Notes: a model not told the origin generated them from the sequence alone. Positions 1 through 57,992 are shown, counted from the first letter of the stretch. The stretch is 64,000 nucleotides of DNA from Spirochaetia bacterium (GCA_017642445.1 JAGCPA010000095.1:2177-66176); one strand, 5' to 3'. Numbers and translations: made by a program.

Positions 1-1060
1 CGACTTCTCTGTAATCCTGGGCCATGAGCATGAGAACCATGACCACGATATGGAGTATCTTTTCGGAAAGGAAGAGCATTCTCATGAACATCATCATGAG
101 CACCATCACGGGCACCGCAACTTAGCCGATGTCCTGAGTATCATTGACAGTACTCAGATGACAGATAAGGCTCGCTCCCTTGCTCATAAGATATTTACGA
201 TTATTGCCGAGGCCGAGTCCAAGGCCCATGGAGTTCCCCTCGATCAGGTCCATTTCCACGAGGTGGGGGCTGTCGATTCCATAGTTGATATTATCGCCCT
301 TGCTGTATGCTTTGACAGCCTGGCTGTTGATAAAGTCTTTGTTCCACGTCTTAACGAAGGGGTGGGAACTGTCAGATGTCAGCACGGCATTCTCCCTGTC
401 CCTGTGCCAGCTGTTGCCAATATTGCCTCTGCCTATAATCTTCCTCTTCATATAATGGATGAGCAGGGTGAGTTCATAACCCCGACAGGGGCAGCATTTG
501 TAGCTGCAGTCCGCACCGACGGAGCGCTTCCGGCAGGGTTCACCATCGAGAAGGTGGGATTGGGGGCAGGAAAGCGCAGCTACCGGATCCCAAGCATTCT
601 CAGGACTATAGTCATAAAATGGGAGGAAGCCCTTGACCATGATGTGATCTGCAAGCTGGAGACCAATATCGACGACTGTCCCGGCGAGGCCCTGGGCTTT
701 GTCATGGAGCAGCTGTTCGAAGCCGGAGCCAGGGATGTCCACTATGTTCCATGCTTTATGAAGAAAAATCGCCCTGGGTATCTCCTCACTGTTCTATGCG
801 ACAGGGAGAAGAGGGGCGATATGGAGAGAATCATCTTCACCCATACTACCACCATAGGAATACGTCATACCGAAATGGAGCGCACTGTTCTGGACCGCCA
901 TATTGAGGAGCGGGAGACTCCCTATGGAAAAGTGAAGGTCAAGGTGGTATCATTTTATGGAAAAGAGCGGGTTTACCCGGAGTATGAGAGCGTGGCAGAT
1001 ATATGCCGTCGTACAGGGGAACCATTTACATCAGTATATAATAGTGCGATAGGAGGATAA
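1..1060 (+). CDS. larC: LarC nickel-insertion protein (pincer nucleotide cofactor biosynthesis). Truncated at the 5' end by the window edge.
   Basis: Frame 2 is open from nt 2 with no start, so the gene continues upstream. His-rich tract HEHHHEHHHGH, GAVDSIVDI and the C-terminal MKKNRPGYLLTV motif are typical of the LarC/DUF111 family. Stop at 1060. Confidence 0.75.
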   Translation, partial: DFSVILGHEHENHDHDMEYLFGKEEHSHEHHHEHHHGHRNLADVLSIIDSTQMTDKARSLAHKIFTIIAEAESKAHGVPLDQVHFHEVGAVDSIVDIIALAVCFDSLAVDKVFVPRLNEGVGTVRCQHGILPVPVPAVANIASAYNLPLHIMDEQGEFITPTGAAFVAAVRTDGALPAGFTIEKVGLGAGKRSYRIPSILRTIVIKWEEALDHDVICKLETNIDDCPGEALGFVMEQLFEAGARDVHYVPCFMKKNRPGYLLTVLCDREKRGDMERIIFTHTTTIGIRHTEMERTVLDRHIEERETPYGKVKVKVVSFYGKERVYPEYESVADICRRTGEPFTSVYNSAIGG

Positions 1061-1449: not shown

Positions 1450-1737
1450 ATGTGCCTTATCATGACTATATGCGCCGCAGCGGTGTTCACTGTGCTTTAT
1501 GCGGTGAATAAAAAGGGCGGCAAAGGTAAGAAAAGCCTTCTGAACGCAACATTCATGTTCTGGGCTGCCGCAATCATGTGGAGTGTGGATGGCATTGCCT
1601 CTGTGTATGGCGGTGAGCCATTCTTTGACATAAGCCGCGAGGATACAATCCTGGGTTTTATCGTTGTCGGGGCCGGTCTTGTGGTATATTCCATGATGGC
1701 AGCTGTTGAGAAAAGGCGGAACCTTAAAGCCCTATGA
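1450..1737 (+). CDS. Hypothetical small membrane protein (two predicted transmembrane helices)
   Basis: 95-aa ORF tightly packed between neighbours. Two hydrophobic segments separated by a Lys-rich loop. Confidence 0.4.
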   Translation: MCLIMTICAAAVFTVLYAVNKKGGKGKKSLLNATFMFWAAAIMWSVDGIASVYGGEPFFDISREDTILGFIVVGAGLVVYSMMAAVEKRRNLKAL

Positions 1738-2684
1738 AGAAACTGTTCTTTACGTTTTTAATCATCCTTTGCTGTGCATCAGGCATTTCTGCAGAACCTG
1801 CCCCTATTGTCTTCTTTATCAAAGATATAACTCCAGAGGCATTAGTTAAGGTTTATAAAGCTACGGGTTACAAGGCAGAAGGGAAGACAGGTGTAAAGGT
1901 CAGCACCGGCGAGAGCGAGAAATCTAACTACCTCCGGCCAGCCCTCATCAAAAATCTGGTGAAGGATGAGCTCAATGCCACTATTGTAGAATGCAATACA
2001 GCTTATGGCGGCAACCGGAACAACAACATAGACCACATGAGAATTGCCAAGGAGCATGGCTTTCTGGATGTGGCCAACGGCTTTGACCTGCAGGATGCAG
2101 AAGGGTATATGACCATTCCTGTGAAAGGGGGAGTGCGGCTTAAGGAGAACTATGTCGGAACCCACTTCAAGGATTACGATACATATCTGATTCTTTCCCA
2201 TTTCAAGGGGCACGCCATGGGTGGCTTCGGCGGTGCGGTCAAGAACCTCTCCATAGGTTTTGCATCAGGCTCAAGCTGCGAGAAATCGGGCAAACTCAAT
2301 ATTCACAGCGCAGGACGCAGCACCACAAGCTGGACCCGCTGTCCTCAGGATGAGTTCCTCGAGAGCATGGCAGAGGCTGCAAAGTCGGTATGCGACTATA
2401 TGCAGGGTGGAAAAGGGATTGTCTGTGTGAATGTGATGAACCGCCTTTCGGTTGACTGCGACTGTGACAGCAGCCCGGCAGAGCCTGATATGCACGATAT
2501 AGGCATTCTGGCCTCACTTGATCCGGTGGCTCTGGATCAGGCATGCGTAGACCTTGTATACAGTGCAAAGGACAGTAAAAGCCTTATAGAGCGCATCGAG
2601 AGCCGCAATGGCATCCATACCCTTGAGCATGCTGAGAAAATAGGTTTCGGCAGCAGAAAATACCAGCTGATTGAGATAAAATGA
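1734..2684 (+). CDS. DUF362-like Cys-rich protein with an N-terminal signal peptide
   Basis: N-terminus MKKLFFTFLIILCCASGISA resembles a signal peptide. The C-terminal region carries the VDCDCD...P cysteine pattern seen in DUF362 (putative Fe-S) proteins. Overlaps neighbouring genes by 4 nt. Confidence 0.5.
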   Translation: MKKLFFTFLIILCCASGISAEPAPIVFFIKDITPEALVKVYKATGYKAEGKTGVKVSTGESEKSNYLRPALIKNLVKDELNATIVECNTAYGGNRNNNIDHMRIAKEHGFLDVANGFDLQDAEGYMTIPVKGGVRLKENYVGTHFKDYDTYLILSHFKGHAMGGFGGAVKNLSIGFASGSSCEKSGKLNIHSAGRSTTSWTRCPQDEFLESMAEAAKSVCDYMQGGKGIVCVNVMNRLSVDCDCDSSPAEPDMHDIGILASLDPVALDQACVDLVYSAKDSKSLIERIESRNGIHTLEHAEKIGFGSRKYQLIEIK

Positions 2685-13135: not shown

Positions 13136-14089
13136 ATGAAAAAATCAATGTGTCTCATTCTTTGCGCAGTTCTTGCTGTCTCTGCATTTGCATCGGGCAG
13201 GAGCGAGAAACAGGATCTTAAAGAGATTAATATCTCCTACGTGCGCTCTCCGTTCAACCTCCCTCTTATCATAATGAAAGAGAAGGGAATGGCAGAGAAG
13301 GCTTTCGGCGAGAAGGGAATCAAAGTAAACTACTACGAGATCACCTCCGGAGCCAAGCAGTCCGAGGCTATTGCGGCAGGAAGCCTTGATATCGCATCGG
13401 TTATCAACTCTGCATCTGTAATCCTGGCCAATGCGGCAGGCAACCCTGTTGAGATCTTCGCTGGGTTCAGCAAGCCTGAGAAGATGTTCACAATCATGAC
13501 TTCAAACCCGGATGTAAAAACTCCGGCCGACCTTAAGGGAAAGAAAGTGGCAGGACCTAAGGGAACTGTGCTCCATGAGCTCTTGGTTGCAGCCCTGAAG
13601 AAAGAGGGCCTTACCACTGCCGATATAGAGTTCATCAACATGGGTATTCCTAACGGTGTGCAGGCTATGCTCTCCGGCAAGGTGGACTGTGCCCTGGCTG
13701 CCGCAGCCTCTGTGGTTAATGCCGAGAAGAACGGCGGCCGTGTTCTGGTGACCTGCGAAGGCTATGTGAGCCCGCTCCTTATCTCTGCCTGCGGCAAAAG
13801 TTTTGCAGAGAACCATCCCGATATGCTTGAGCTTTACATTGCGACATACAAAGAGGCAAAAGAGTGGATGGAAGCCAATATGGAAGAAGCCCTTGCAATC
13901 GGAGCCAAGGTTCAGGATATCTCTATAGAGGATGCAGAAAAGCTCTTTGCCTGGAGCAATTTCACCGACCATCTTACCAATGCAGACCTTGATGCCCTTG
14001 AGTATGACGTGAACTTCATGCTTGAGAACGGTATGATTGAGAAGCGCATCGACAAGATGGACTTTGTGAATAAAATGGCCCTGAGATAA
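13136..14089 (+). CDS. ABC-type substrate-binding lipoprotein, NMT1/SsuA/TauA-like family (orphan, no permease or ATPase nearby)
   Basis: Signal peptide with lipobox LILC. Periplasmic-binding fold typical of the sulfonate/nitrate/HMP-binding family. GAGG ribosome-binding site upstream. Confidence 0.65.
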   Translation: MKKSMCLILCAVLAVSAFASGRSEKQDLKEINISYVRSPFNLPLIIMKEKGMAEKAFGEKGIKVNYYEITSGAKQSEAIAAGSLDIASVINSASVILANAAGNPVEIFAGFSKPEKMFTIMTSNPDVKTPADLKGKKVAGPKGTVLHELLVAALKKEGLTTADIEFINMGIPNGVQAMLSGKVDCALAAAASVVNAEKNGGRVLVTCEGYVSPLLISACGKSFAENHPDMLELYIATYKEAKEWMEANMEEALAIGAKVQDISIEDAEKLFAWSNFTDHLTNADLDALEYDVNFMLENGMIEKRIDKMDFVNKMALR

Positions 14090-15760: not shown

Positions 15761-16300
15761 GTGAAGCGTATCTGTCTTTACCTATTCTTTGCATTCTTTA
15801 AAATCTCTTTCTTTACTGTAGGGGGAGGCCCTGTCATGCTGGCTGTCATGGACCAGGAGTTCCGCTGCCGCAGGAAGCTTCTTTCCGACACCCAGATGAA
15901 CGATATCCTTGCTGTCATCTACTCAATGCCTGGAGCCATAGGGGTGAACTCTGCCCTGAACATAGGTTATAAGCTGGGCGGCAAGAAAGGGGCAGCCTGT
16001 GCGCTTGTTGGGGTGCTTGTCCCTCCTGTTGCAATCATCCTGTTTATCACAACTTTTGTGGAGATGCTGAAGAGCTCGCCCCTTACCGGCTATGCCTTCA
16101 TAAGCATCCGGGCCGCTGTGACAGTGTTCATAATCTGTACTGTAGGCAACATGATGAAAAAAACATTCCGCTCCTGGAAGGATATTGTCATCGGTCTCTT
16201 TGCCTTCCTGGCTGTGGAGTTCATAAATCTACCGGCTGTCTATGTGGTTGCTGCATGCGGCCTTCTGGGAATGCTTATGTACCAGGGGGATGAACAGTGA
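15761..16300 (+). CDS. Chromate transporter family protein, short-chain half (1 of 2)
   Basis: FFTVGGGPVMLAVM matches the CHR family GGG motif. Half-size at 179 aa. Confidence 0.75.
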   Translation: MKRICLYLFFAFFKISFFTVGGGPVMLAVMDQEFRCRRKLLSDTQMNDILAVIYSMPGAIGVNSALNIGYKLGGKKGAACALVGVLVPPVAIILFITTFVEMLKSSPLTGYAFISIRAAVTVFIICTVGNMMKKTFRSWKDIVIGLFAFLAVEFINLPAVYVVAACGLLGMLMYQGDEQ

Positions 16301-16911
16301 TCTACTTTATGCTTTACCTGGTGTTTGCAAAGATTGCATTCTTCGCCTTCGGCGGCGGTTATGCAAACCTCCCTATAATCCAGTCGGAGCTTTTAAGCCG
16401 CGGCTGGTGCACAGTGGAGCAGTTTGCCGATATTGTTGCCATAGCCCAGATGACTCCTGGCCCGGTAGTCATCAATACTGCAACCTATGTGGGGAAGACT
16501 CTGGCAGGCACTCTGGGTGGAATAATCGCAACCTTGGGATTTATCACCCCGGCCATACTTATAACTGTGGCAATCTACTTTCTGGCCGAGATGTTCTCCT
16601 CTGTCTCTTTCATCCGGCATGGAATACGTGGAATCAGGGCCGGAGTGGCAGGGCTTATCCTGTGTGCTGTCATCTTTTTCATCGAGAACTCTGTCCTTAA
16701 CCATGGGCTTCAGCTGAACCGCCTTATCTATGATTTTGCCGGCACAGCAGAGGGATGGAAAAGCATCAGGCTGGTGATCCCTGCTGTCATCATTGTGCTG
16801 ATCAATATAATTTTTGTTAAAAAAACTCATCTCACTATCTACCTATGTATTATTATTTCTGTTATTATAGGAACGCCGTTGATGTATTATTGGAGGTTTA
16901 TATTTGGATAA
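16297..16911 (+). CDS. Chromate transporter family protein, short-chain half (2 of 2)
   Basis: FFAFGGGYANLPIIQ is the second CHR half. 4-nt overlap with the first half. Confidence 0.75.
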   Translation: MIYFMLYLVFAKIAFFAFGGGYANLPIIQSELLSRGWCTVEQFADIVAIAQMTPGPVVINTATYVGKTLAGTLGGIIATLGFITPAILITVAIYFLAEMFSSVSFIRHGIRGIRAGVAGLILCAVIFFIENSVLNHGLQLNRLIYDFAGTAEGWKSIRLVIPAVIIVLINIIFVKKTHLTIYLCIIISVIIGTPLMYYWRFIFG

Positions 16912-18193: not shown

Positions 18194-19497
18194 GCAGAAT
18201 GGATCTTAAGGAAAAATCGTTGAAATATCACAGCTTCCCGGTTGCGGGAAAGATTGAGGTCATACCCTCAAAACCATGCAGAACTCAGGATGACCTTTCC
18301 TGTGCCTATACCCCTGGAGTTGCTTTTCCCTGTCTTGAGATCAAATCAGATCAGAGCCTGGTCTCCACCTACACCAGAAGAAAGAACCTGGTCGGTGTTA
18401 TAACAAATGGTACCGCAGTCCTTGGACTGGGCAATATCGGCCCCTATGCCGGAAAGCCGGTTATGGAGGGGAAGGGAGTGCTCTTCAAAAGGTTCGCAGA
18501 TGTGGATGTCTTTGACCTTGAGCTGGACTGCAGCGACCCCAAGGCTTTCATAGATGCAGTCAAACTACTGGGCCCTACCTTCGGAGGGATAAACCTTGAG
18601 GATATCAAGGCTCCCGAGTGCTTCGAGATAGAGGACAGCCTCAAAGAGGCAATGGATATCCCTGTGTTCCACGACGACCAGCACGGTACTGCCATCATAA
18701 CAGGTGCGGCCCTGCTTAATGCCCTGGAGATCATCGGAAAGAAGATTGATCAGGTCAAGGTTGTTATTAACGGAGCAGGAGCTGCCGGCATTGCCTGTGG
18801 CAAATTCTACATAGCCCTGGGTGTCAGGAAAGAGAACATAACCATGTGCGACACCAAGGGAATCATCTATAAAGGCCGCACTGCCGGCATGAACAAGTAT
18901 AAGGAGTTCTTTGCATCCGGCAGCGAGGCTGGCACTCTGGCCGACGCCCTTAAGGGAGCCGACGTGTTCCTGGGCCTTTCCGGCAAGGGGCTGGTTACTG
19001 GAGAAATGCTCAAGACCATGAATGCAGATCCGATCGTGTTTGCCCTTGCCAACCCGGATCCAGAGATAACTTATCCCGAGGCAACTGCTGCCAGGGCCGA
19101 TGTTATAATGGCTACAGGCCGCTCCGACTATCCTAACCAGGTCAACAATGTCATGGGCTTCCCGTTCATCTTCCGTGGTGCTCTGGATGTGGAGGCATCT
19201 GCTATAAACGAAGAGATGAAAGTTGCGGCTTCCCACGCCCTTGCCGGACTTGCAAAGCTTCCGGTGCCGGAAGAGGTGCTTAAAGCCTATGGAGTCAAGG
19301 CTCTGGAGTTCGGGCGTGACTATATTATTCCAAAGCCATTCGATCCGCGGGCTTTTGTGCAGGTTTCCGCAGCAGTTGCCGAGGCAGCTGTGAAAAGCGG
19401 TGTGGCCAGAGCTCCATATGCCTCCAAAGAGGCCTACATCAAGGAGCTTGAGGAGAGAATGGCCACCTCCATCAACCGTTTCAAGGAGTCAAAATGA
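18190..19497 (+). CDS. NAD(P)-dependent malic enzyme (short form)
   Basis: Malic-enzyme dinucleotide-binding motifs ([27 protein letters not shown]). 435 aa. Confidence 0.85.
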
Positions 19498-20657
19498 AAA
19501 AGCTTTTACTTATTGCCTTAATTCTTATTCTTCCTGTGCTCTCATTTGCAGATAAAAAGACTGAGCAGTTTGCATCCCTTATCGGGACAAATAATGTTGC
19601 AAAGATCGAGGCTGCCATCAAGGATGGAGCCAATGTGAACGGCGGCAGCGGGGACAAGGCAATGACTCCTCTTATGATAGCAAGCCAGAATGATGATGCC
19701 CTTGAGGTGGTCAAACTGCTCCTTAAGTATGGGGCAAAGGTGAACGAGACCAACACCCAGGGTGATACAGCACTGCTCCTTGCGGCCCAGACCACCACAA
19801 ATACCGATATCATCAACACCCTTATTGAGGCAGGTGCAGATGTGAATGTAAGGAACAGGGATCAGGTTACACCTCTTATGGCAGCGGCAGGGCAGAACTT
19901 CAAGTCTTCTGTCACCGAGGCTCTGCTTAAAGCAGGTGCCAACGTGGCTGACAGGGATATGGATGGAAGAACCCCCCTTATCTTTGCTGTCACCTATAAC
20001 GAGAACCCGAAGATCACCGAAGCCCTTTTGAAGAGCGGGGCAGACTGCAACTCCAAGAACCGCTACGGCCTTCCTGTGATCATGATGGCTGCTCAGTCCA
20101 ACAAGAATGTGGATGTCCTCCGTGTCCTTATCGAGAACGGTGCAGATATCAACTGCAAGGTCGAGGCATTCAATCCTATGATCTATGCCGCAATCTACAA
20201 CCCTAATCCCGCAGTGATCGAGCTTCTTCATAAGAAGGGCCTCTCCATAAGCGAATATAATGCCAACGGAGTCTCTCCATTCCTCTATTCCTGCTTCTAC
20301 AACTTCTCGTCCGACATCACACAGAAGTTCCTGGAGTTGGGTGCAGACCCTAAGCAGACCGATGTCAACGGAATCTCTGCTCTGATGTATGCCTCCATGC
20401 ACAACGGCAACCCTGAGGTGATCCATATCCTCACCAAGGCAGGAGCCGACGTGAATGCCAAGGAGAAGAACGGCGGCCTTACACCGCTCATGCTGGCAGC
20501 TCTTCAGAACGAGCATTCCACCATTATCAAGGCTCTGCTCGAGGATGGTGCAGACATCAATCTTAAGTCTGATGCAGGGATGACAGCATACGAATATGCG
20601 GTGAAAAACGAGAGCCCTATCTCCAAATTGGATATAGTTCAAGAGCTGGAACCGTAA
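19494..20657 (+). CDS. Secreted ankyrin-repeat protein
   Basis: Signal peptide [19 protein letters not shown] followed by at least 9 ankyrin repeats (TPLMxAA...LLKxGAxVN periodicity). Confidence 0.8.
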
Positions 20658-22825: not shown

Positions 22826-22875
22826 AATGTCCCCAAGCCTATACGGCTGTGTTTAATCTCTTAAGTTCAATTCCG

Positions 22876-22898
22876 ACCCCGGCTTTTGCCGGGGTTTT
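22876..22898 (+). terminator. Rho-independent terminator after the EF-G paralog
   Basis: ccccggc-tttt-gccgggg hairpin followed by a T5 run. Confidence 0.7.
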
Positions 22899-22915
22899 TA
22901 CTAGGGGGATACGCT

Positions 22916-23677
22916 ATGAAAAAGATTGCAATTTATGGAAAAGGGGGAATCGGTAAATCGACCGTCACCTCCAATATATCAGCAGCTCTGGCGATAAAAG
23001 GCTACAAAGTCATGCAGATAGGCTGCGACCCAAAGGCAGACTCTACAATCAACCTTATGCATGGAAAGCAGCTTGAGCCTGTCCTCAACTACATGCGTGA
23101 CCACGATTCAAATCCTAAGATTGAAGATATAATCCACCCCGGTTTCGCAGGTGTCATGTGCATGGAGACAGGCGGCCCGACACCGGGACTCGGCTGTGCC
23201 GGAAGGGGAATAATTGCCACATTCCAGCTTATGGACGAGCTCAATGTGTTCGACACCCTTAAGCCTGATGTTGTCCTCTATGATGTTCTTGGCGATGTTG
23301 TGTGCGGCGGTTTTGCTGCCCCGATCCGGGAGGGTTATGCCCAGGATATCTACATTGTAACCTCGGGCGAGAAGATGTCTCTCTTTGCTGCCAACAATAT
23401 ACGCACAGCAGTTAAGAACTTCGAGGAGAGGGGCTATGCCAGGGTGCGGGGAATAATCTTCAACTCCCGCGGTCTTAATGGCGAGGAGGAGAAAGTGCAG
23501 GCCTTTGCCGACAGCATTGGTGTCCCTGTCATCGGCCATCTGCCCAGATCCCAGGAGATTATGGATTTTGAGGACAAGGGAATGACTGTTGTGGAGGGAA
23601 ATCCAGACCTCCCTATAAGCAGAGAATTCCTCTCCATTGCAGATAAAATAATGAAGTGTAAGAACGATGAGAGCTGA
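22916..23677 (+). CDS. NifH/BchL/CfbC-family ATPase (nitrogenase iron protein-like)
   Basis: P-loop YGKGGIGKST and switch regions. Both [4Fe-4S]-ligating cysteines are conserved (GLGCAGRG, VVCGGFAAP). AGGGGGA ribosome-binding site. The track ORF starts earlier at 22886. Confidence 0.85.
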   Translation: MKKIAIYGKGGIGKSTVTSNISAALAIKGYKVMQIGCDPKADSTINLMHGKQLEPVLNYMRDHDSNPKIEDIIHPGFAGVMCMETGGPTPGLGCAGRGIIATFQLMDELNVFDTLKPDVVLYDVLGDVVCGGFAAPIREGYAQDIYIVTSGEKMSLFAANNIRTAVKNFEERGYARVRGIIFNSRGLNGEEEKVQAFADSIGVPVIGHLPRSQEIMDFEDKGMTVVEGNPDLPISREFLSIADKIMKCKNDES

Positions 23678-24977
23678 ATTCAGGACTATAGGACAACTTG
23701 CATCTGAAAAGAGAGAGAATAAGTCTGTACCTGTATTCGGCGGCTGCTGGCTGCACTACAACGGCCCCGGCAGTTCCGGCTACGGAGTCAAGCGGACCGC
23801 TATGCTGCTGCCGGAAAGTGCAATGCTTATGGTCGGCCCTATGGGGTGCAGCCGCTCCGGCACAGTAGTTGCCGAAAAATATTGCTTTGCCCACCGCATG
23901 TTCTATCTCCACCTTGACGACAGGAGCATCGCCCTTGGTTCTTATCTCAAGAGAATACCCGAAGCAGTCCAATATATAAAATATCTTGGCCAGTTCAAGG
24001 CAGTTCTTATCTGCATGACATGCCTGGATGCCCTGCTTGGGACTGACCTGGCCGGGATTGGGAAAAAGATAAGCCGTGAGGTTGGCATTCCTGTCACCAC
24101 AACTTTTATGGATCCGATTGTGAGGGATGGAAACTATGGCCCCATGGTGCAGGTCCGGCAGGCTATAACAAACTGCTTTGAAGCCCAGGAAAACGCCTCT
24201 GGAGGCAAAGATGCGGTCAACCTTCTTGGAACTTTTGCCCCGCTGGAGAATAAAAGCGAGCTTTTGACCATTCTTAAAGAGGCTGGAATAAAAGAGATAA
24301 AGACAGTCGCAGGCTGCAGTACCTTTGAGGAACTTAAGGATATGGGGAACTCCAGGGCAAATATAATAGTGCATCCTCAGGCTGCGGCATGCGGGGCAGA
24401 TTTGGAAAAACGCCTTGGTATGCCATATATAAAGCTTTTCACTTCTTATGTTCCAGATACAATTGAAGAGAATTATAAAAAGCTTGGAGAGCTCCTTAAG
24501 GCTGAGATCTGCTGCAAAGATGAGAAGAGAGCTGCAGAGAAAAAGATAGAGGAATTCGCTGATAAGCACCATGGAAAGAGGATTGCAGTAGGAGAGGCTG
24601 TCTGTGGAAATCCATTCGATATAGCTCTCATGATTTTAAATGCTGGAATAGAAGTGCCTTTTATCTTCAGAGATATGATTCACCCCGAGGACTGGGATTT
24701 AATTGCAGAACTGAACAGGATAGCACCAGAGCTCAAGGTCTATTCCGGAGTGCATCCTACTACAGCTGCATCTCCATCCTCGCTGCCAGAAGCTGACCTT
24801 ATGCTTGGTCTTGATGCAGGCTATTACAATCAGCAGGCAATAAGCGCCGCATGGCCATTCGACAGGACTTTCTACGGGTTTGACGGCATAAATGCGCTTC
24901 TTGAGATTATGGACAGTGCTTTCTCCAACCCTAAAGGGCACAGGGAGCAGATGAAAGGAACATATCTTACGGTGTAG
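23667..24977 (+). CDS. Nitrogenase component 1-type oxidoreductase, NifD/NifE/BchN-like subunit
   Basis: 436 aa. Start overlaps the nifH-like stop (ATGAGAGCTGA). N-terminal cysteines (GGCW, GPMGCSRSG, LICMTCLD) fit a subunit-interface cluster site. Nitrogenase/oxidoreductase component 1 fold. Confidence 0.7.
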   Translation: MRAEFRTIGQLASEKRENKSVPVFGGCWLHYNGPGSSGYGVKRTAMLLPESAMLMVGPMGCSRSGTVVAEKYCFAHRMFYLHLDDRSIALGSYLKRIPEAVQYIKYLGQFKAVLICMTCLDALLGTDLAGIGKKISREVGIPVTTTFMDPIVRDGNYGPMVQVRQAITNCFEAQENASGGKDAVNLLGTFAPLENKSELLTILKEAGIKEIKTVAGCSTFEELKDMGNSRANIIVHPQAAACGADLEKRLGMPYIKLFTSYVPDTIEENYKKLGELLKAEICCKDEKRAAEKKIEEFADKHHGKRIAVGEAVCGNPFDIALMILNAGIEVPFIFRDMIHPEDWDLIAELNRIAPELKVYSGVHPTTAASPSSLPEADLMLGLDAGYYNQQAISAAWPFDRTFYGFDGINALLEIMDSAFSNPKGHREQMKGTYLTV

Positions 24978-24985
24978 AGGGAAAT

Positions 24986-26008
24986 ATGAAAGGATTCTTC
25001 AGATATTTAGCCCCCTTTGCCCCGGACTACTCAGGGGCAGTCTCTGCCTTGTATGCTGCAGGAGGACTTGTTGTGCTGTGCGATCCGGGCGGGTGCTCCG
25101 GCAATGTGGCAGGTTACGACGAGCCCCGTTTCTATGGCGATAAAGTGTGCTTCTACAGCTCTGCCATAAGAGAGATGGACACAATTTTCGGCCGGGATGA
25201 CAAGCTTAAGAAGAAAATATGCGCCGCAGTTTCCCTTGGCAGCTATAAGTTTGTGGCTCTTGTCGGCACCCCTGCAGTCTCTGTGATAGGGACCGACCTT
25301 GCAGCCGCCGCTAAGGCAGTGGAGCAGGAGACAGGAATACCTGCATTCAGTGTATGCACATCCGGGATGGAGAATTACTCCTTCGGCGAGGCCAAGGCTA
25401 TAATGGCTTTTGTAAAGAAATTCCTGCCACCTGATCCTGCTGCTGTGTCATCAGCTGATACAGCAAAAATTGGGATATTCGGGGCTACACCGCTTAACAG
25501 GGCTTCTGATGATGACCTTGTCTCAATCGCTTCTGCAGATGGCGGCACTCTGTTATCTGAGAATACTGCAGTTGATGCATTGAGGAATATTACCCGGTTC
25601 AAAGAAATTGTATGTTATTCTCCTGGAGCAATAGGGGCATGCCGCCTTATAAAGGAGAGGTTCGGAATCCCATACAGCTTGAGCTATCCAGAGACTCCAT
25701 CCCTGATAAGGGCCACAGAAGAGGCTGGCAGCGCAAAGCGTATACTTATAGTGCATCAGCAGGGGGCAGGTAACACTCTGCGCAATATAATAAGGCGCAC
25801 TTCCGATGCCGAGATTGCTGTGGGAAGTTTCTTCCTGCAGGATTCTAAATTCGCTGAAAAACAGGATCTCTTCTTCCAGGGGGAAGATGAGCTTGCTGCC
25901 GCATCAAAAAAGGTTGACCTTGTATATGCCGACCCTATGTACAGAAGGGCTCTCTCTGCCGATGCAAGATTTGTCCCTCTGGTTCACTGCGCCCTTTCCG
26001 GCTGCTAA
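24986..26008 (+). CDS. Nitrogenase component 1-type oxidoreductase, NifK/NifN/BchB-like subunit
   Basis: 340 aa. GAGGG ribosome-binding site. N-terminal VVLCDPGGCSGN cysteines. Paired with the preceding D-like subunit in NifDK/BchNB fashion. Confidence 0.6.
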   Translation: MKGFFRYLAPFAPDYSGAVSALYAAGGLVVLCDPGGCSGNVAGYDEPRFYGDKVCFYSSAIREMDTIFGRDDKLKKKICAAVSLGSYKFVALVGTPAVSVIGTDLAAAAKAVEQETGIPAFSVCTSGMENYSFGEAKAIMAFVKKFLPPDPAAVSSADTAKIGIFGATPLNRASDDDLVSIASADGGTLLSENTAVDALRNITRFKEIVCYSPGAIGACRLIKERFGIPYSLSYPETPSLIRATEEAGSAKRILIVHQQGAGNTLRNIIRRTSDAEIAVGSFFLQDSKFAEKQDLFFQGEDELAAASKKVDLVYADPMYRRALSADARFVPLVHCALSGC

Positions 26009-26010
26009 AG

Positions 26011-26039
26011 AAAAAAAAGGCTGATTGAAAAATCAGCCT
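26011..26039 (-). terminator. Hairpin terminator, effective for minus-strand transcripts
   Basis: A8 run (26011-26018), then hairpin aggctgatt-gaaa-aatcagcct. Read on the minus strand this is a stem followed by T8. It may also attenuate + strand readthrough from the nif-like operon. Confidence 0.6.
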
Positions 26040-50524: not shown

Positions 50525-50776
50525 CTATTTGCGCATCTTTCCGAATACATAGCCGAATACAGCACCAGCTGCACCGCAAGCCAGTATCTTAAGACGGATA
50601 GAACCCAGGTCGGCAGCCTTGGAAGCCAGTTTCTTGATTCCATTCTCAGCCGGCAGGCACAGTGTCTTAAGAGAAATCATGTTTCCGTTCACCTTTCCAA
50701 AGATAAGGTATCCGATTACAAGACCTACAACAACCCAGCATACAATTGCTACGATATTGCTGTTCTTTTTACTCAT
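50525..50776 (-). CDS. Hypothetical small membrane protein
   Basis: 83 aa, two hydrophobic segments. Overlaps the nifU stop by 4 nt. Confidence 0.4.
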   Translation of the reverse strand: MSKKNSNIVAIVCWVVVGLVIGYLIFGKVNGNMISLKTLCLPAENGIKKLASKAADLGSIRLKILACGAAGAVFGYVFGKMRK

Positions 50777-51372
50777 TTTCTCCCTCCGAAAATATGAAGA
50801 TAATCCTCAAAAAGCTCCTTGGCTTTCTCGACACAGCCGCCACAAACCTTGCCCAGCTTTGTCTTCTCCTGAAGCTCCTCAAAAGTCTTTCCGCCTTCCT
50901 TGACGAAATTCTCGATATCTAAGTCAGTTATATTGTTGCATACGCAGATTACTTTTGCAACTTCTTTTTCAAGCATATCCTCTTTGCCAGTCTTCTTGCA
51001 GTAGTCCTCGATAGCGGCTCTCAGAGCCCGGTCGCCCAGGACAGAGCAGTGGATCTTGTGGTCAGGCAGACCGCCCAGCTGGCCCACTATATCCTCCGGC
51101 TTGATCTTATATGCCTCCTTTATAGGCATTCCCTTCACCATCTCGCTCATCATGGAGGTGCTGGCAATAGCGCTGGCACATCCGTATGTCTTCCACTTTA
51201 TATCCTCAATCTTGTCATCCTTGACCTTGATGCCTACCAGCATCTCGTCGCCGCAGGTGATGTTTCCCACCTTGCCCCAGCCGTCGGCCTGGTATGCGGC
51301 CTCATCCTCAAGTATATTGCGTGGATTGGTGAAATGGTCCTTCACCTTCTCGGTATAAACCCATGACATCAT
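50773..51372 (-). CDS. nifU: Fe-S cluster assembly scaffold, NifU-type (IscU-like domain plus BFD-like [2Fe-2S] domain)
   Basis: N-terminal scaffold cysteines (GNITCGD, YGCASAIASTSMM, HCSV) and a C-terminal C-x-C...CGGC region. Confidence 0.85.
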   Translation of the reverse strand: MMSWVYTEKVKDHFTNPRNILEDEAAYQADGWGKVGNITCGDEMLVGIKVKDDKIEDIKWKTYGCASAIASTSMMSEMVKGMPIKEAYKIKPEDIVGQLGGLPDHKIHCSVLGDRALRAAIEDYCKKTGKEDMLEKEVAKVICVCNNITDLDIENFVKEGGKTFEELQEKTKLGKVCGGCVEKAKELFEDYLHIFGGRK

Positions 51373-52574
51373 TTTGTCTCTCCTTTCTTGTATACAGTGG
51401 ACATCTTCCGAATTTTCTCAATTATAGGAGGAAGCTTCTCAAGAACATAGTCTATATCTTCCTCGGTGTTCTCCCGTCCCAGGCTGAAGCGGATGGAACC
51501 GTGGGCCAGTTCTGCGTCAACTCCGGTTGCCATAAGGACATGCGATGGCTCCAGGGAGCCTGTCGAGCAGGCAGATCCTGTGGATACTGCAATCCCTTCC
51601 AGGTCCAGATAGAGGAGAATAGACTCTCCCTCGGCTCCGGTGAACGATACATTCAGGGTGTTGGGGAGGGTATGCTCCTGGTTTCCGTTTATCTTTATGT
51701 CTGGGATTGTGGCGATAATGCCGGCCTTAAGCTTGTTCCGCAGCGCCAAAAGCCGTGCCGATTCGGCCTCAAGCTCCTGTTCTGCCAGCTCTGCTGCCTT
51801 TCCCAGGGATACAATACCTGTGGTATTCATAGTTCCGGCACGGCGGCCTGCCTCCTGATGCCCTCCGTGTACAAACGGACAGTAGGGGGCTCCCTTCTTC
51901 GCATAAAGGATGCCGATTCCCTTGGGGGCGTAGATCTTATGGCCCGACATGCTCAGGTAGTCGATTCCCATCGCTTTCACATCAATAGGAATCTTGCCGA
52001 TTGCCTGCACTGCGTCGGTGTGGAAGAGGACTCCCTTCTCATGGCAGATCTGGGCAATGCGCTTTATATCCTGCAGAGTGCCAATCTCGTTGTTGGCTGC
52101 CATGACTGAGACCATGGCTGTCTTGTCGGTGATCAGGTCGTAGAGCTCCTCAGGGTCTACCAGGCCGGTAGAATCGACCTTCATGAACTTGGTGTTTATG
52201 CCGCTTTCCTTAAGGAACTTCACTGTCTCAAGGATGGCGGGGTGTTCGATAGGGGTGGTGATAATCTCGTTCTTGTCGCACCTGGTGCAGCACCCCTTGG
52301 ATGAGCAGGATGCGTTCTGGCAGCTTACATATTTAAGCACTGTGTTGTCAGACTCAGAGCCGCCTGCAGTAAAGATAATCTCGCTGGGATCAGCGTTTAT
52401 AAGATGGGCAATCTGGTTCCTTGCTTTCTCTATGAGCATTCCTGCCTCGCGGCCGTAGCCATGCATGCTGGAACCGTTTCCAAATATATCCAGAGACTCT
52501 ATCATAACCTTTTTTACTTCGGGATGGATAGGAGTGGTGGCATTATAATCCATATAGACATTTCTGTGGTTCAT
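51369..52574 (-). CDS. nifS: Cysteine desulfurase NifS/IscS family, carrying a Cys-rich insertion
   Basis: Pyridoxal-phosphate fold with the active-site region SGHKIYAPKG and the catalytic SACSTGS loop. Unusual segment SCQNASCSSKGCCTRCDK at roughly residues 90-110. Confidence 0.9.
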   Translation of the reverse strand: MNHRNVYMDYNATTPIHPEVKKVMIESLDIFGNGSSMHGYGREAGMLIEKARNQIAHLINADPSEIIFTAGGSESDNTVLKYVSCQNASCSSKGCCTRCDKNEIITTPIEHPAILETVKFLKESGINTKFMKVDSTGLVDPEELYDLITDKTAMVSVMAANNEIGTLQDIKRIAQICHEKGVLFHTDAVQAIGKIPIDVKAMGIDYLSMSGHKIYAPKGIGILYAKKGAPYCPFVHGGHQEAGRRAGTMNTTGIVSLGKAAELAEQELEAESARLLALRNKLKAGIIATIPDIKINGNQEHTLPNTLNVSFTGAEGESILLYLDLEGIAVSTGSACSTGSLEPSHVLMATGVDAELAHGSIRFSLGRENTEEDIDYVLEKLPPIIEKIRKMSTVYKKGETK

Positions 52575-56795: not shown

Positions 56796-56823
56796 AAAAA
56801 AGCCCGCATCTGCGGGCTTTTTT
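56796..56823. terminator. Bidirectional rho-independent terminator (serves the tRNA and the convergent ankyrin gene)
   Basis: A run, then hairpin gcccgc-atct-gcgggc, then T6, immediately after the tRNA 3' end. Confidence 0.75.
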
Positions 56824-57970
56824 ATTCCTTTGCGCCTGCTTTGAGCAGGAGCTGCTCTATATCCTTTGCACCCAGATCTCTGGACATGGAGAGAGGGGTG
56901 TTGCCACCTTTTGATTTGACATTCACCTCGGCCCCCTTGTAGATCAGGACTTCTGTCATCTCATAGTTCTGGGCCATCACTGCCAGAAGCAGAGCTGTCT
57001 TATTATCCTTGTCCGCAGCATTTATATCTGCACCCATTACCAGCGAGCGGTAGAAATTCTCCTTCTTGCCGTTCTGCACCGATTTAAACAGCATCTCTGT
57101 GGCCTGCGATTCTGAAAGTATTGTAGAAGTCGGCTCTACCGGCTTGGGTTCTTCCTTCACAGGCTTCTTTGCCTTTGCTTTTGCAGGCTTTGGCTCTTCC
57201 TTATGCTGGGGCGGTGCAGCCACAGGCTTCTCTGGTTCTGCCTTTGTCACATTGGTTGCAACCATAACGGCTGGAACTGTGCTCTTCTCTGCATTTTTAA
57301 GAACCTTCTGTATTCTATTGTACTCTTTTCTGTCAGCTTTGTTTGTCTTGGATTTCTTTGCATCATCCGACAGCTTATCCACTCCGAAGTCGTGCCGCTC
57401 ATCGCCTGATTCGCTTATTGCAAATGATCCGGAAAGGGTGCAGCCTCTGTTCATCATGAACTCTATCACATCTGCGCTGTAGTCGCTGCTGCAGGCTGCA
57501 AACCAGATAGGATTCTTGTAGGATTTCATTATTTTGCCGGCCGATTCATAATCTCCGGATTCATCCCGTATCTCTCCGGAATTAATATCAATTCCTGCAT
57601 CCAGCAGAATCTGGATTATTTTAATGGTGTTGGCCGGGTCGTGGGTCTCTCTGTTGCTCCATACTGCGCCGGTCAGGGCATTGCCTCCAAGTGCGTCGTC
57701 CGCTCTGAGCGAGATATCAGCTCCAGCTTTAATAAAAAGGGATACTATATCGGCATTTCCCACATTGGCAGCAGCCATTACTGCAGGCTGGCCGTTAGGC
57801 ATGAAAGTGTTGGGATCGAAGCCGCCGTCAAGCATAGCCTTCACCCCGGCAGCATCTCCTGCCTCGATAGCTTTGAGCATCTCTTTCGGGTCATCGTATG
57901 CAGATACAGATGCGGTTATGAACATAAATATGGCAATCAAGCTCAGAAAGAGCAAAAATCTTCTTCTCAT
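56822..57970 (-). CDS. Secreted ankyrin-repeat protein with a Lys/Pro-rich linker
   Basis: Signal peptide (RRRFLLFLSLIAIFMFITASVSA), ankyrin repeats at both ends, and a central linker PEKPVAAPPQHKEEPKPAKAKAKKPVKEEPKPVEP. Start placed at the third ATG (57970), which has an AGGAG ribosome-binding site 6 nt upstream. The ORF is open to 57988. Confidence 0.75.
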   Translation of the reverse strand: MRRRFLLFLSLIAIFMFITASVSAYDDPKEMLKAIEAGDAAGVKAMLDGGFDPNTFMPNGQPAVMAAANVGNADIVSLFIKAGADISLRADDALGGNALTGAVWSNRETHDPANTIKIIQILLDAGIDINSGEIRDESGDYESAGKIMKSYKNPIWFAACSSDYSADVIEFMMNRGCTLSGSFAISESGDERHDFGVDKLSDDAKKSKTNKADRKEYNRIQKVLKNAEKSTVPAVMVATNVTKAEPEKPVAAPPQHKEEPKPAKAKAKKPVKEEPKPVEPTSTILSESQATEMLFKSVQNGKKENFYRSLVMGADINAADKDNKTALLLAVMAQNYEMTEVLIYKGAEVNVKSKGGNTPLSMSRDLGAKDIEQLLLKAGAKE

Positions 57971-57992
57971 CATCAACTCCTGATTCATAGTA

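What the first reader, a model, noticed from the sequence alone, without database searches (positions are those of the whole stretch)
22916..26008. Nitrogenase-like three-gene cluster (NifH-like ATPase plus distinct NifD-like and NifK-like subunits) in a non-diazotrophic context
Three overlapping or translationally coupled genes encode a complete nitrogenase-like enzyme. The Fe-protein homolog has the P-loop and both [4Fe-4S]-bridging cysteines. The 436-aa NifD/BchN-like and 340-aa NifK/BchB-like component 1 subunits each carry N-terminal Cys clusters suited to an inter-subunit [4Fe-4S] site. None of nifB, nifE, nifN or nifV, nor any Mo/V/Fe-cofactor gene, is in the window. The cluster is not near chlorophyll or F430 genes. 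Both catalytic subunits are short compared with NifDK or BchNB. This matches the poorly characterised group IV nitrogenase-like lineages, whose known members catalyse unexpected reductions (Ni-sirohydrochlorin reduction by CfbCD, methylthio-alkane reduction by MarHDK). The substrate here is unknown. The cluster is insulated by terminators on both sides, so it looks like an independent unit.
Basis: partly seen in the sequence, partly recalled or inferred. Interest (0 to 1): 0.75.

Follow-up and report, generated by a model that had tools for sequence, protein, structure and literature searches.

The report
Orphan nitrogenase-like reductase in rumen spirochaete
A rumen spirochaete carries an intact, selectively maintained three-gene relative of nitrogenase that cannot fix nitrogen; it belongs to a family noticed in gut bacteria in 2012 whose substrate is still unknown, and whose relatives sit beside sulfonate-type importers and hydrogenase-cofactor assembly genes.

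Summary
Three coupled genes encode a NifH-like ATPase (22916-23677), a 436-aa NifD/E-like protein (23667-24977) and a 340-aa NifK/N-like protein (24986-26008). All three are intact and under strong purifying selection (dN/dS 0.02-0.13).

None reaches any curated cut-off for Nif, Vnf, Anf, Bch or Cfb. The FeMoco ligands and four of the six P-cluster cysteines are missing. The conserved set is D-Cys61/116/119 plus K-Cys37 and K-Asp14, which fits one inter-subunit [4Fe-4S] cluster.

This is the "2 Cys + 1 Cys NifHEN-like" clade that Dos Santos et al. described in 2012 in gut Firmicutes, so it is known but uncharacterised.

New here is that the clade splits in two by gene context:
- Subclade 1 lies beside HypF/C/D/E in 63-67 of 74 loci.
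- Subclade 2, which holds the window, lies beside an SsuA-type binding protein in 10 of 11 non-spirochaete loci (with permease and ATPase in 7). HydE, HydF or TM1266 genes are present in 6 of the 11.

Spirochaete copies, including this one, are bare H-D-K in a housekeeping context.

The best reading is an ATP-driven reductase of a small imported, sulfonate-like substrate. The main rival is a role in metallocofactor maturation. It is a new member of a known kind and of moderate interest.

The parts
22874..22899 (+). Conserved GC-rich hairpin plus T-run (CCCCGGC-TTTT-GCCGGGG-TTTTT), lying between the EF-G-like gene and nflH and ending 17 nt before the start codon. It is either the terminator of the upstream gene or a leader or attenuator element.
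   Evidence: The sequence is shown. It is conserved in L001-L003, with a compensatory pair change in L002. The predicted fold has z = -3.0. No Rfam family matches.
22916..23677 (+). nflH: NifH-like ATPase (Fe protein, component 2), 253 aa. It has the P-loop GKGGIGKS, the switch I motif CDPKADST, and the [4Fe-4S]-bridging residues Cys94 and Cys130.
   Evidence: Pfam Fer4_NifH 1.1e-91. NCBIfam CfbC scores 318 bits (cut-off 402) and nifH 313 (cut-off 394). PDB NifH matches at 2e-70 and MarH at 1e-66. Cys94 and Cys130 are invariant in 91 sequences. dN/dS is 0.02-0.04.
23667..24977 (+). nflD: NifD/NifE-like component-1 subunit, 436 aa. Cys61 (αCys88 position), Cys116, Cys119 (αCys154 position), Asp121, Asp127 and Asp383 are invariant. 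There is no conserved ligand at the αCys275 or αHis442 positions.
   Evidence: Pfam PF00148 3.1e-35. The best NCBIfam hit is nifE at 63 bits against a cut-off of 505. The family profile's best PDB match is NifE at 1.7e-20. The AF2 model has pLDDT 86 and matches the component-1 fold at TM 0.6-0.72. Conservation is. dN/dS is 0.10-0.13.
24986..26008 (+). nflK: NifK/NifN-like component-1 subunit, 340 aa. Cys37 (βCys95/NifN Cys44 position) and Asp14 (at or next to the βCys70 position) are invariant. An invariant Pro96 sits where the αCys154/βCys153 ligand would be.
   Evidence: Pfam PF00148 9.1e-16. The AF2 model has pLDDT 85 and shows a full three-domain fold, with NifN and NifE as top hits. Profile alignment is and conservation. 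The protein is 100% identical to NCBI 'hypothetical protein J6W62_07945 [Spirochaetia bacterium]'. dN/dS is 0.09-0.10.
26018..26039 (.). Bidirectional terminator-like hairpin (AGGCTGATTGAAAAATCAGCCT), with an A-run before it and a T-run on the opposite strand. It lies 10 nt after the nflK stop codon.
13136..14089 (+). Orphan SsuA-family (NMT1-type) substrate-binding protein, about 9 kb upstream of nflH. It is a possible but unproven partner. Homologues at 32-37% identity lie directly beside HDK in all non-spirochaete members of the subclade for which downstream sequence is available.
   Evidence: Pfam NMT1 1.9e-21. NCBIfam TIGR01728 SsuA_fam scores 167 bits against a cut-off of 163.5. The alignment is and the tblastn result. 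No permease or ATPase partner was found in the window.

Best explanation
**What it is (shown).** The cluster encodes a working two-component, ATP-dependent reductase of the nitrogenase superfamily. It is not a nitrogenase.
- All three genes are intact and under purifying selection.
- H carries every Fe-protein motif.
- D and K adopt the full component-1 fold.
- The P-cluster and FeMoco ligand sets are absent.
- The surviving invariant residues are D Cys61/Cys116/Cys119 and K Cys37/Asp14.

**How it works (inferred from established Fe-protein and component-1 mechanics).**
1. The NflH dimer holds a bridging [4Fe-4S] cluster on Cys94/Cys130 and docks on an NflD2K2 tetramer.
2. Driven by MgATP hydrolysis, it passes low-potential electrons to a single [4Fe-4S] cluster at the D/K interface.
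3. That cluster reduces a small substrate bound in the D-subunit cavity, the pocket that holds FeMoco in NifD and protochlorophyllide in DPOR. The invariant Asp383, Asp121 and Asp127 lie in or near this pocket.

**What it acts on (inferred from gene context in relatives, not shown for this genome).** The substrate is a small anionic, sulfonate-like compound of the kind imported by SsuABC-type transporters. The reaction would be comparable in logic to isethionate reductase IsrBHDK, which needs an SsuCAB importer and a radical-SAM partner. In about half of the relatives, HydE, HydF and TM1266-like proteins are encoded in the same operon. They may mature the enzyme's site or use its product.
For: **Identity and integrity.** dN/dS is 0.02-0.13 with no internal stops.

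**Ligand pattern.** It matches the 2-Cys/1-Cys clade described in PMC3464626.

**Fold.** D and K models have pLDDT 86 and 85, and both match component-1 structures.

**Context of the window's own subclade** (D 41-60% identical).
- An SsuA-family binding protein lies within 3 kb of HDK in 10 of 11 non-spirochaete loci. The eleventh contig is truncated.
- The permease and ATPase are present in 7 of the 11.
- HydF is present in 6, HydE in 5 and TM1266 in 5.
- HydE is canonical by NCBIfam: TIGR03956 scores 505 bits against a cut-off of 254.
- Gene order varies between loci while the linkage persists.

**In the window.** An SsuA-family protein sits at 13136..14089.

**Precedent.** IsrBHDK requires an SsuCAB transporter and a radical SAM enzyme (PMC11423573; review PMC13474568).
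Against: - In the window and all four other Spirochaetia loci, HDK is bare.
- The window's SsuA homologue is 9 kb away behind unrelated genes. It has no permease or ATPase partner in the window and is only 32-37% identical to the HDK-linked binding proteins.
- No cysteine or methionine assimilation genes accompany HDK in any relative, unlike Mar and Isr loci.
- The sister subclade has no importer at all and is instead tied to HypFCDE.
- The best profile matches of both D and K are the maturase NifEN.
- The SsuA-family assignment is borderline, at 151-179 bits against a cut-off of 163.5. NMT1-type binding proteins also bind nitrate, bicarbonate and pyrimidine precursors.
- No substrate has been tested.
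Confidence: 0.4

Rival explanations
1. **Metallocofactor maturation role.** NflHDK would act like NifH/NifEN, as an ATP-driven reductase or scaffold in building an organometallic Fe-CO/CN-type centre. It would work with HydE/HydF in subclade 2 or HypF/C/D/E in subclade 1, rather than turning over a metabolite. In the spirochaete the partner maturases would be encoded elsewhere in the genome.
For: - The link is family-wide. HypF is present in 67 of 74 subclade-1 loci, HypC in 65, HypD in 64, HypE in 63 and TM1266 in 57.
- HydF/HydE/TM1266 are present in 5-6 of 11 non-spirochaete subclade-2 loci.
- The TM1266-like protein is the one neighbour shared by both subclades.
- The best PDB profile hits of D and K are the maturase NifE/NifN.
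- Firmicute loci carry two NFL sets, reminiscent of nifDK plus nifEN.
- Dos Santos et al. proposed this role in 2012.
Against: - No Hyp or Hyd gene lies in the 64-kb window or in the flanks of the other Spirochaetia loci.
- The most constant neighbour in the window's own subclade is an importer, not a maturase.
- [FeFe]-hydrogenase can be matured in a defined system without any NFL protein (abstract of PMC12501116, listed).
- No residue set beyond one [4Fe-4S] site is conserved that could hold an extra cofactor. The position of NifE Cys250 varies between His, Asn and other residues.
Confidence: 0.3
2. **Tetrapyrrole reductase.** The enzyme would reduce a ring double bond of an imported or endogenous tetrapyrrole, as CfbCD, DPOR, COR and the proposed Group VI systems do.
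For: - It has a simple [4Fe-4S] chemistry like CfbCD and DPOR.
- H scores highest against the CfbC model, at 318 bits.
- The N-terminal part of K weakly matches the CfbD model TIGR03282, at 31.7 bits.
- Group VI systems were proposed to make a tetrapyrrole cofactor.
Against: - No tetrapyrrole, cobalamin, F430 or chlorophyll gene lies next to HDK in the window or in any of roughly 90 related loci.
- The CfbC and CfbD cut-offs (402 and 268 bits) are far from met, and D does not hit the CfbD model at all.
- The enzyme is heteromeric, whereas CfbD is homomeric.
- The BchL, BchX, BchN, BchB and BchY cut-offs are not met.
Confidence: 0.07
3. **Cryptic nitrogenase.** The enzyme would fix N2, as the Group IV-A Nfa system of Endomicrobium proavitum does.
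For: It has an H-D-K gene order, and there is a precedent for a Group IV enzyme that fixes N2 (review).
Against: - Only 3 of the 6 P-cluster cysteine positions are kept. There is no Cys at the α275 position and no His at the α442 position.
- There is no nifB/nfaB in the window.
- The NCBIfam nitrogenase models score 38-63 bits against cut-offs of 486-654.
Confidence: 0.01
4. **Non-functional remnant.** The spirochaete copy would have lost its importer and maturase partners and be decaying.
For: The HDK is bare and has no linked partners. The spirochaete clade has also lost several cysteines that most relatives keep: D positions 60, 132, 146 and 197, and K position 42.
Against: - dN/dS is 0.02-0.13 at dS up to 1.1.
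- The frames are intact, and synteny is conserved in four genomes.
- All family-invariant residues are retained.
Confidence: 0.02

Closest known systems
The '2 Cys + 1 Cys NifHEN-like' clade of Dos Santos et al. 2012 (BMC Genomics 13:162). [quoted passage not shown] Its function is unknown.
   Same: - It has the same cysteine pattern: D keeps the αCys88 and αCys154 equivalents, and K keeps only the βCys95 equivalent.
- It has no FeMoco ligands.
- Relatives at 35-37% D identity and 63% H identity occur in Dorea, Coprococcus and Blautia. They carry two linked NFL copies beside hydrogenase maturation genes.
   Different: - The window belongs to a sister subclade at 60% identity or less to any non-spirochaete member.
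- That subclade is never next to Hyp genes. Outside Spirochaetia it is linked to an SsuABC-type importer and to HydE/HydF.
- D has a subclade-specific Cys27 and a C-terminal HREQMxG(S/T)YLTV tail.
- The spirochaete copy is a single, bare H-D-K.
Isethionate reductase IsrBHDK (Group IV-F, Rhodobacter capsulatus)
   Same: - It is an NFL H-D-K enzyme predicted to use a simple [4Fe-4S] cluster.
- It works with an SsuCAB-type ABC importer and a radical SAM enzyme.
- Subclade-2 operons show the same three-part logic of reductase, Ssu-type importer and radical SAM gene.
   Different: - The cysteine pattern is the inverse. Isr has one Cys in D (α88) and three in K (β70, β95, β153), whereas this enzyme has two or three in D and one in K.
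- IsrD groups near MarD and NfaD, whereas the window's D is very distant from MarD (E = 0.17).
- The radical SAM partner in Isr is BciD-like IsrB, whereas here it is canonical HydE together with the GTPase HydF.
- There are no sulfur-assimilation genes nearby.
- Neither partner is present next to the window's genes.
NifEN, the FeMoco maturase scaffold
   Same: - It is the best profile and structural match for both D and K.
- D Cys119 aligns with NifE Cys124, and K Cys37 aligns with NifN Cys44.
- NifEN also carries a [4Fe-4S] cluster rather than a P-cluster at the subunit interface (established knowledge of NifEN).
   Different: - It scores 63 bits against the nifE cut-off of 505, with 14-17% identity.
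- It lacks the conserved NifE Cys250 that holds the L-cluster.
- There is no nifB, nifX or nifDK.
- K is about 100 residues shorter than NifN.
DPOR (BchLNB/ChlLNB) and CfbCD
   Same: They are ATP-driven Fe proteins paired with a component 1 that has a single inter-subunit [4Fe-4S] cluster and no complex cofactor. DPOR shows that an Asp can replace a Cys ligand.
   Different: - The ligand distribution differs. DPOR has three Cys from N plus one Asp from B, and CfbD is a homodimer.
- There is no tetrapyrrole context.
- All curated cut-offs are missed.
Methylthio-alkane reductase MarBHDK (Group IV-C)
   Same: It has the same H-D-K architecture. H is about as similar to MarH as to NifH (1e-66 against 2e-70).
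   Different: [quoted passage not shown] None of these features is present here. The window's D matches MarD only at E = 0.17 as a single sequence and 1.9e-11 as a profile, which is below NifE and NifD.

Membership tests
Nitrogenase proper (Nif/Vnf/Anf HDK, Groups I-III) | Six P-cluster cysteines: D Cys62/88/154 and K Cys70/95/153 | tested here: not met
   Only the α88 (Cys61), α154 (Cys119) and β95 (K Cys37) equivalents are conserved. An invariant Pro96 in K occupies the α154/β153 position, and Asp14 lies near β70.
Nitrogenase proper (Nif/Vnf/Anf HDK, Groups I-III) | FeMoco ligands αCys275 and αHis442 | tested here: not met
   The position aligned to NifE Cys250/NifD Cys275 is His236 in the window, and it varies between His, Asn and other residues across the family. 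No His lies at the 442-equivalent position, judged by inspection of the alignment.
Nitrogenase proper (Nif/Vnf/Anf HDK, Groups I-III) | Curated HMM cut-offs and the accessory genes nifB/E/N | tested here: not met
   nifH scores 313 bits (cut-off 394), nifD 38.5 (cut-off 654) and nifE 63 (cut-off 505). No nifB/E/N/V is in the 64-kb window. The rest of the genome was not available.
DPOR/COR (Group V) | BchL/BchX, BchN/B and BchY/Z equivalog scores, plus a bacteriochlorophyll gene context | tested here: not met
   BchL scores 210 bits (cut-off 345), BchX 183 (cut-off 331), BchN 26, BchB 29 and BchY 34, all far below their cut-offs. There are no chlorophyll genes in the window or in related loci.
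CfbCD (Group IV-B) | CfbC and CfbD equivalog scores, a homomeric single D subunit, and a methanogen/F430 context | tested here: not met
   CfbC scores 318 bits (cut-off 402). D has no hit to TIGR03282, and K scores 31.7 bits (cut-off 268). Two different component-1 genes are present, and the hosts are bacteria.
Methylthio-alkane reductase MarBHDK (Group IV-C) | P-like and L-like cluster ligands, a MarB partner, and close similarity to R. rubrum MarDK | tested here: not met
   The ligands are absent. No radical SAM NifB-like gene is adjacent. MarD (PDB 9FMG/9D9U, identified) matches at E = 0.17 as a single sequence and 1.9e-11 as a profile, which is weaker than NifE and NifD.
Isethionate reductase IsrBHDK (Group IV-F) | Cysteine pattern of D α88 only and K β70/β95/β153 (review) | tested here: not met
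   Here D has α88 plus α154 (and Cys116), and K has β95 only.
Isethionate reductase IsrBHDK (Group IV-F) | Adjacent IsrB radical SAM gene and an essential SsuCAB importer | tested here: inconclusive
   Neither is adjacent in the window. In non-spirochaete subclade-2 relatives an SsuA-type binding protein is adjacent in 10 of 11 loci (with permease and ATPase in 7), and a radical SAM gene in 5 of 11. That gene is HydE, not IsrB-like. No Isr sequence was available for direct comparison.
Group VI NFL (Elusimicrobia, Méheust et al. 2020) | An Fe protein that is sister to Group V, loci rich in radical SAM/B12 genes, and groundwater Elusimicrobia, Myxococcales or Gracilibacteria as hosts | tested here: inconclusive
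   H scores much closer to the NifH and CfbC models (313-318 bits) than to BchL and BchX (183-210). Context and hosts also differ. No Group VI sequences were available for a tree.
Dos Santos 2012 '2 Cys + 1 Cys NifHEN-like' clade | Two conserved Cys in the D/E-like subunit (α88, α154), one in the K/N-like subunit (β95), and no FeMoco ligands | tested here: met
   The pattern is as described in PMC3464626.
Dos Santos 2012 '2 Cys + 1 Cys NifHEN-like' clade | Homology to the copies in gut Firmicutes (Dorea, Coprococcus) that are duplicated and linked to hydrogenase maturation genes | tested here: met
   D, K and H cluster with set 1 of Dorea, Coprococcus and Blautia loci, at 35-37%, 36% and 63% identity. 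Those loci carry HypF/C/D/E and a second H-D set. A joint tree with Mlab_1040, Dhaf_1539 and the C. catus sequences themselves was not made.

The most novel reading that the evidence does not exclude
The enzyme may belong to an unrecognised pathway that joins the nitrogenase superfamily to organometallic Fe-CO/CN cofactor chemistry. In this reading, NflHDK is an ATP-driven low-potential reductase that does one of two things:
- It carries a centre built by HydE/HydF (subclade 2) or HypCDEF (subclade 1).
- It makes a ligand precursor for those maturases from an imported small anion. Examples would be CO from CO2, or a C-N or C-S fragment.

That would be a new catalytic role for the superfamily. 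It could bear on open questions such as the anaerobic source of the CO ligand of [NiFe]-hydrogenases.
Probability: 0.2. Interest if true: 0.85.

Novelty: new member of a known kind. Interest (0 to 1): 0.5.

Why it matters
Each nitrogenase-like enzyme that has been characterised turned out to do unexpected chemistry: F430 ring closure, methane and ethylene release from thioethers, and sulfonate cleavage.

This clade remains functionally blank. It is nevertheless common in gut and rumen bacteria, with relatives in at least 565 candidate stretches from the species-representative genomes scanned. These include cultured Blautia, Dorea, Coprococcus, Megasphaera and Eubacterium.

The context split found here gives two concrete hypotheses that can be tested in cultivable hosts: an Ssu-type importer with HydE/HydF in one subclade, and HypFCDE in the other. 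The spirochaete copy shows that the H-D-K core is maintained by selection without linked partners, which argues that it is a self-sufficient enzyme.

Tried and rejected
- **Exact-sequence look-up of the window's D protein.** It is not on record. The K protein did identify the source MAG.
- **Riboswitch or leader search.** No Rfam family reaches its gathering score anywhere in the window or in 8 related loci, apart from tRNAs. Only sub-threshold sRNA noise overlaps the upstream hairpin.
- **Hyp/Hyd genes by tblastn.** None was found in the window or in L001-L003 and L006.
- **Flanks of the independent spirochaete locus L006.** They hold CotH, a permease, threonine synthase and a tRNA-binding protein, which are uninformative.
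- **Literature searches linking 'nitrogenase-like' with HypF/HypD or HydE/HydF.** They found nothing beyond Dos Santos 2012. The JBC 2024 hyd-neighbourhood paper does not mention nitrogenase-like genes.
- **Group VI and Mar-expansion papers.** Both were checked and do not cover this clade.
- **Structure searches.** They confirm the fold but do not discriminate between subfamilies, since every match has 11-17% identity.
- **Not done.**
  - A reference phylogeny with named NifD, BchN, CfbD, MarD and IsrD sequences could not be built, because those sequences were not retrievable with the tools. HMM cut-offs and PDB profile scores were used in its place.
  - A D-K complex model, needed to check ligand geometry, was not possible with the single-chain predictor.

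Full report
**1. The observation.**
- nflH runs 22916..23677 and encodes 253 aa.
- nflD runs 23667..24977 and encodes 436 aa. It overlaps nflH by 11 nt.
- nflK runs 24986..26008 and encodes 340 aa. It starts 8 nt after nflD.

Pfam assigns H to Fer4_NifH (1.1e-91), and D and K to nitrogenase component 1 (3.1e-35 and 9.1e-16). H has the P-loop GKGGIGKS. It also has Cys94/Cys130 at the positions of the NifH cluster ligands, invariant in 91 relatives.

GC content is the same as in the rest of the window. The K protein is 100% identical to an NCBI 'hypothetical protein' from a Spirochaetia bacterium MAG. The closest D relatives, at 83-94% identity, are in yak, sheep and goat fore-stomach Spirochaetia MAGs.

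**2. What it is not.**
No curated NCBIfam model is satisfied.

| Protein | Model | Score (bits) | Cut-off (bits) |
|---|---|---|---|
| H | CfbC | 318 | 402 |
| H | nifH | 313 | 394 |
| H | BchL | 210 | 345 |
| H | BchX | 183 | 331 |
| D | nifE (best hit) | 63 | 505 |
| K | nitrogenase alpha (best hit) | 32 | 486 |
| K | CfbD | 31.7 | 268 |

As a single sequence, D matches MarD only at E = 0.17. MarD is PDB 9FMG/9D9U, identified.

Family profiles built here give the following PDB order for D: NifE 1.7e-20, NifD 5e-17, VnfD 2e-13, MarD 2e-11, BchB 3e-7. The order for K is similar.

The AlphaFold models are confident, with pLDDT 86 for D and 85 for K. They match every component-1 structure about equally, at TM 0.6-0.72 and 11-17% identity, with NifN and NifE first for K. 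The proteins are therefore deep-branching members of the superfamily with the complete three-domain fold, not members of any characterised family.

**3. Metal sites.**
Conservation was measured across about 90 homologues of each subunit.
- In D, the invariant residues are Cys61, Cys116, Cys119, Asp121, Asp127 and Asp383.
- In K, the invariant residues include Cys37 and Asp14.

The profile alignments give these equivalences.
- D Cys119 lies on NifE Cys124, the αCys154 position.
- K Cys37 lies on NifN Cys44, the βCys95 position.
- An invariant Pro96 in K sits where the third ligand would be.
- D His236 lies on the NifE Cys250/NifD Cys275 cofactor-ligand position. It varies between His, Asn and other residues, so it is not a conserved ligand.

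By motif inspection, which is inference, D Cys61 in 'GPMGC' is the αCys88 equivalent, and K Asp14 in 'PFAPD(Y/Q)SGA' sits at or next to the βCys70 position.

The enzyme can therefore hold neither a P-cluster nor an FeMoco- or L-type cluster in the known manner. The residues fit one [4Fe-4S] cluster at the D/K interface.

This is exactly the pattern that Dos Santos et al. (2012) reported: two Cys in the D/E-like subunit and one in the K/N-like subunit. They found it in Mlab_1040/1039, Dhaf_1539/1540, Coprococcus catus and Dorea longicatena, and suggested that a non-cysteine ligand may complete the cluster, as in DPOR.

**4. Family and context.**
A scan of one genome per species found 565 relatives, most of them in gut and rumen Firmicutes. 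Others are in Lentisphaeria, Coriobacteriia, Synergistota and Spirochaetia. In the 1.84-billion-protein representative library, 707 clusters match at E ≤ 1e-3 and 128 at ≤ 1e-30. Many are 770-1000-aa proteins that match in two stretches, consistent with D-K fusions.

Clustering the component-1 ORFs of 89 loci gives D-type, K-type and a second D2-type group. The D-type group splits cleanly in two.

*Subclade 1* has 74 loci, at about 35-37% identity to the window.
- The typical architecture is H1-D1-K1-HypF-HypC-HypD-HypE-TM1266-like-H2-D2.
- Within 8 kb, HypF is present in 67 loci, HypC in 65, HypD in 64, HypE in 63 and TM1266 in 57.
- None has an Ssu-type gene.
- The window's proteins are orthologous to set 1 (H 63%, D 37%, K 36% identity) and not to set 2 (H 51%, D 26%).

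*Subclade 2* has 16 loci, including the window.
- It never has Hyp genes.
- In 10 of the 11 non-spirochaete loci, an SsuA-family binding protein lies within 3 kb of HDK. The eleventh contig is truncated.
- The ABC permease and ATPase are present in 7 of the 11.
- HydF is present in 6, HydE in 5 and TM1266-like in 5. HydE scores 505 bits on TIGR03956 against a cut-off of 254.
- Gene orders vary between loci.

The five Spirochaetia loci (the window, L001-L003 and L006) have a bare H-D-K. In the window lineage it lies between an EF-G-like gene and a small membrane protein followed by SecA.

**5. The window itself.**
About 60 ORFs were annotated. They are housekeeping genes: tRNA synthetases, RuvAB, QueA, malic enzyme, Mfd, TsaD and proline synthesis.
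- There are no nif accessory, tetrapyrrole, hydrogenase, Hyp or Hyd genes.
- A NifS/NifU-like pair at 50773..52574 is general Fe-S assembly.
- An orphan SsuA-family binding protein lies at 13136..14089. It scores 167 bits on TIGR01728 against a cut-off of 163.5, and it is 32-37% identical to the HDK-linked binding proteins. It is 9 kb away and has no permease or ATPase partner in the window, so the link is only a lead.

The three genes are clearly in use.
- dN/dS against the L001-L003 orthologues is 0.02-0.04 for H, 0.10-0.13 for D and 0.09-0.10 for K, at dS up to 1.1.
- None of the copies has an internal stop.

**6. Regulation.**
A GC-rich hairpin with a T-run at 22874-22899 ends 17 nt before the nflH start codon.
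- It is conserved in all four close relatives while the sequence around it diverges.
- It shows a compensatory pair change in L002.
- It matches no Rfam family.

There is no room for a promoter between the hairpin and the gene. HDK must therefore be transcribed either by read-through from the EF-G-like gene or from a promoter upstream of the hairpin, in which case the hairpin would be a leader. A bidirectional terminator follows nflK at 26018-26039.

**7. Mechanism.**
*Shown:* an intact Fe protein, two component-1 subunits with one conserved inter-subunit ligand set, and purifying selection.

*Inferred from the established mechanism of NifH/BchL/CfbC-type systems:*
1. MgATP-gated electron transfer runs from the H2 [4Fe-4S] cluster to a D/K [4Fe-4S] cluster.
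2. Electrons then pass to a substrate in the D cavity.

*Inferred from context in relatives:* the substrate class. I commit, at about 0.4, to reduction of a small anionic, sulfonate-like compound of the kind imported by SsuABC-type systems. Three points support this choice.
- The importer is the most constant neighbour in the window's own subclade.
- Isethionate reductase provides a direct precedent for the trio of NFL enzyme, SsuCAB importer and radical SAM enzyme.
- A bare, selected H-D-K behaves like a self-sufficient enzyme.

The main rival, at about 0.3, is a role in building a hydrogenase-type metal centre. The family-wide Hyp, Hyd and TM1266 linkage favours it, as do the best profile matches to NifEN. 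Dos Santos et al. suggested it in 2012. The two ideas can be combined if the enzyme makes a precursor for HydE/HydF.

Tetrapyrrole reduction, N2 fixation and gene decay are each poorly supported, as set out under the rival explanations.

**8. Comparison and novelty.**
The cluster is a member of the uncharacterised 2-Cys/1-Cys 'NifHEN-like' clade. Membership was tested on the cysteine pattern and on homology to the Dorea, Coprococcus and Blautia copies. A joint tree with the original reference sequences was not made.

It fails the tested defining features of nitrogenase, DPOR/COR, CfbCD, Mar and Isr. Group VI could not be tested by phylogeny but does not fit by Fe-protein affinity, context or host. 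The 2026 review of NFL systems lists IV-A, IV-B, IV-C, IV-F, V and VI as named groups, and leaves D and E as unknown clades. It does not discuss this gut-associated clade.

The locus is therefore a new member of a known, still orphan kind. The subclade-specific context split and the selected bare spirochaete form appear to be new observations. They are modest in themselves, but they turn an old open question into specific experiments.

**Scores.**
- Interest: 0.5.
- Novelty: new member of a known kind.
- Most novel surviving reading: a link between nitrogenase-like reductases and Fe-CO/CN cofactor chemistry. Probability is about 0.2, and interest if true 0.85.

Noticed in passing
window 22874-22899 (and L001-L003 at the same relative position): A conserved hairpin plus T-run abuts the nflH ribosome-binding site. 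L002 carries a compensatory pair change, and an invariant UGUCCCC just after the upstream stop codon can pair with the GGGGGA Shine-Dalgarno sequence in the predicted fold. It could be an attenuator or leader rather than a plain terminator.
   Followed up: partly
window 50..1060 and 1734..2684; L081 17591-20463; L082 2279-3574: Nickel-pincer cofactor genes recur near subclade-2 loci. LarC and a DUF362 protein are at the start of the window. LarC, LarB and LarE lie directly after HydF in L081. LarA lies about 6 kb upstream of HDK in Pyramidobacter (L082). This may be chance.
   Followed up: no
window 50773..52574 (- strand): A NifS-like cysteine desulfurase lies next to a NifU-like scaffold (NifU_N plus BFD domains). 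This is the general NIF-type Fe-S assembly pair, not nitrogenase-specific, but it is the only 'nif'-named content in the window.
   Followed up: partly
L008 and about 60 similar Firmicute loci (for example L008 7117-17156): A large conserved gut-Firmicute locus reads H1-D1-K1-HypF-HypC-HypD-HypE-TM1266-like-H2-D2. In Blautia it is preceded by FeoB, a cytidylate-kinase-like protein and a permease. Some loci (L014, L035, L020) add HydE/HydF and a third D-K pair.
   Followed up: partly
one search hits P0242-P0261; L020 and L055 ORFs of about 805 aa: Many relatives are single 770-1000-aa proteins that match the D query in two stretches. These are D-K (or D-D) fusions of the component-1 subunits.
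   Followed up: no
window 24986..26008 compared with L002 3233-4174 and L003 9321-10262: The K-like subunit has a 27-residue insertion or deletion among closely related Spirochaetia: 340 aa in the window against 313 aa in L002 and L003. It lies in the second domain, around residues 185-215.
   Followed up: no
window 19494..20657 (+) and 56822..57988 (-): The window holds two ankyrin-repeat proteins, which is unusual for bacteria. The first has a signal-peptide-like N-terminus and lies two genes upstream of nflH, conserved in L001 and L003.
   Followed up: no
window 15761..16911: Two adjacent half-size chromate-transporter (ChrA-like) genes of 179 and 204 aa lie upstream. The same pair is conserved in L001 and L003.
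   Followed up: no
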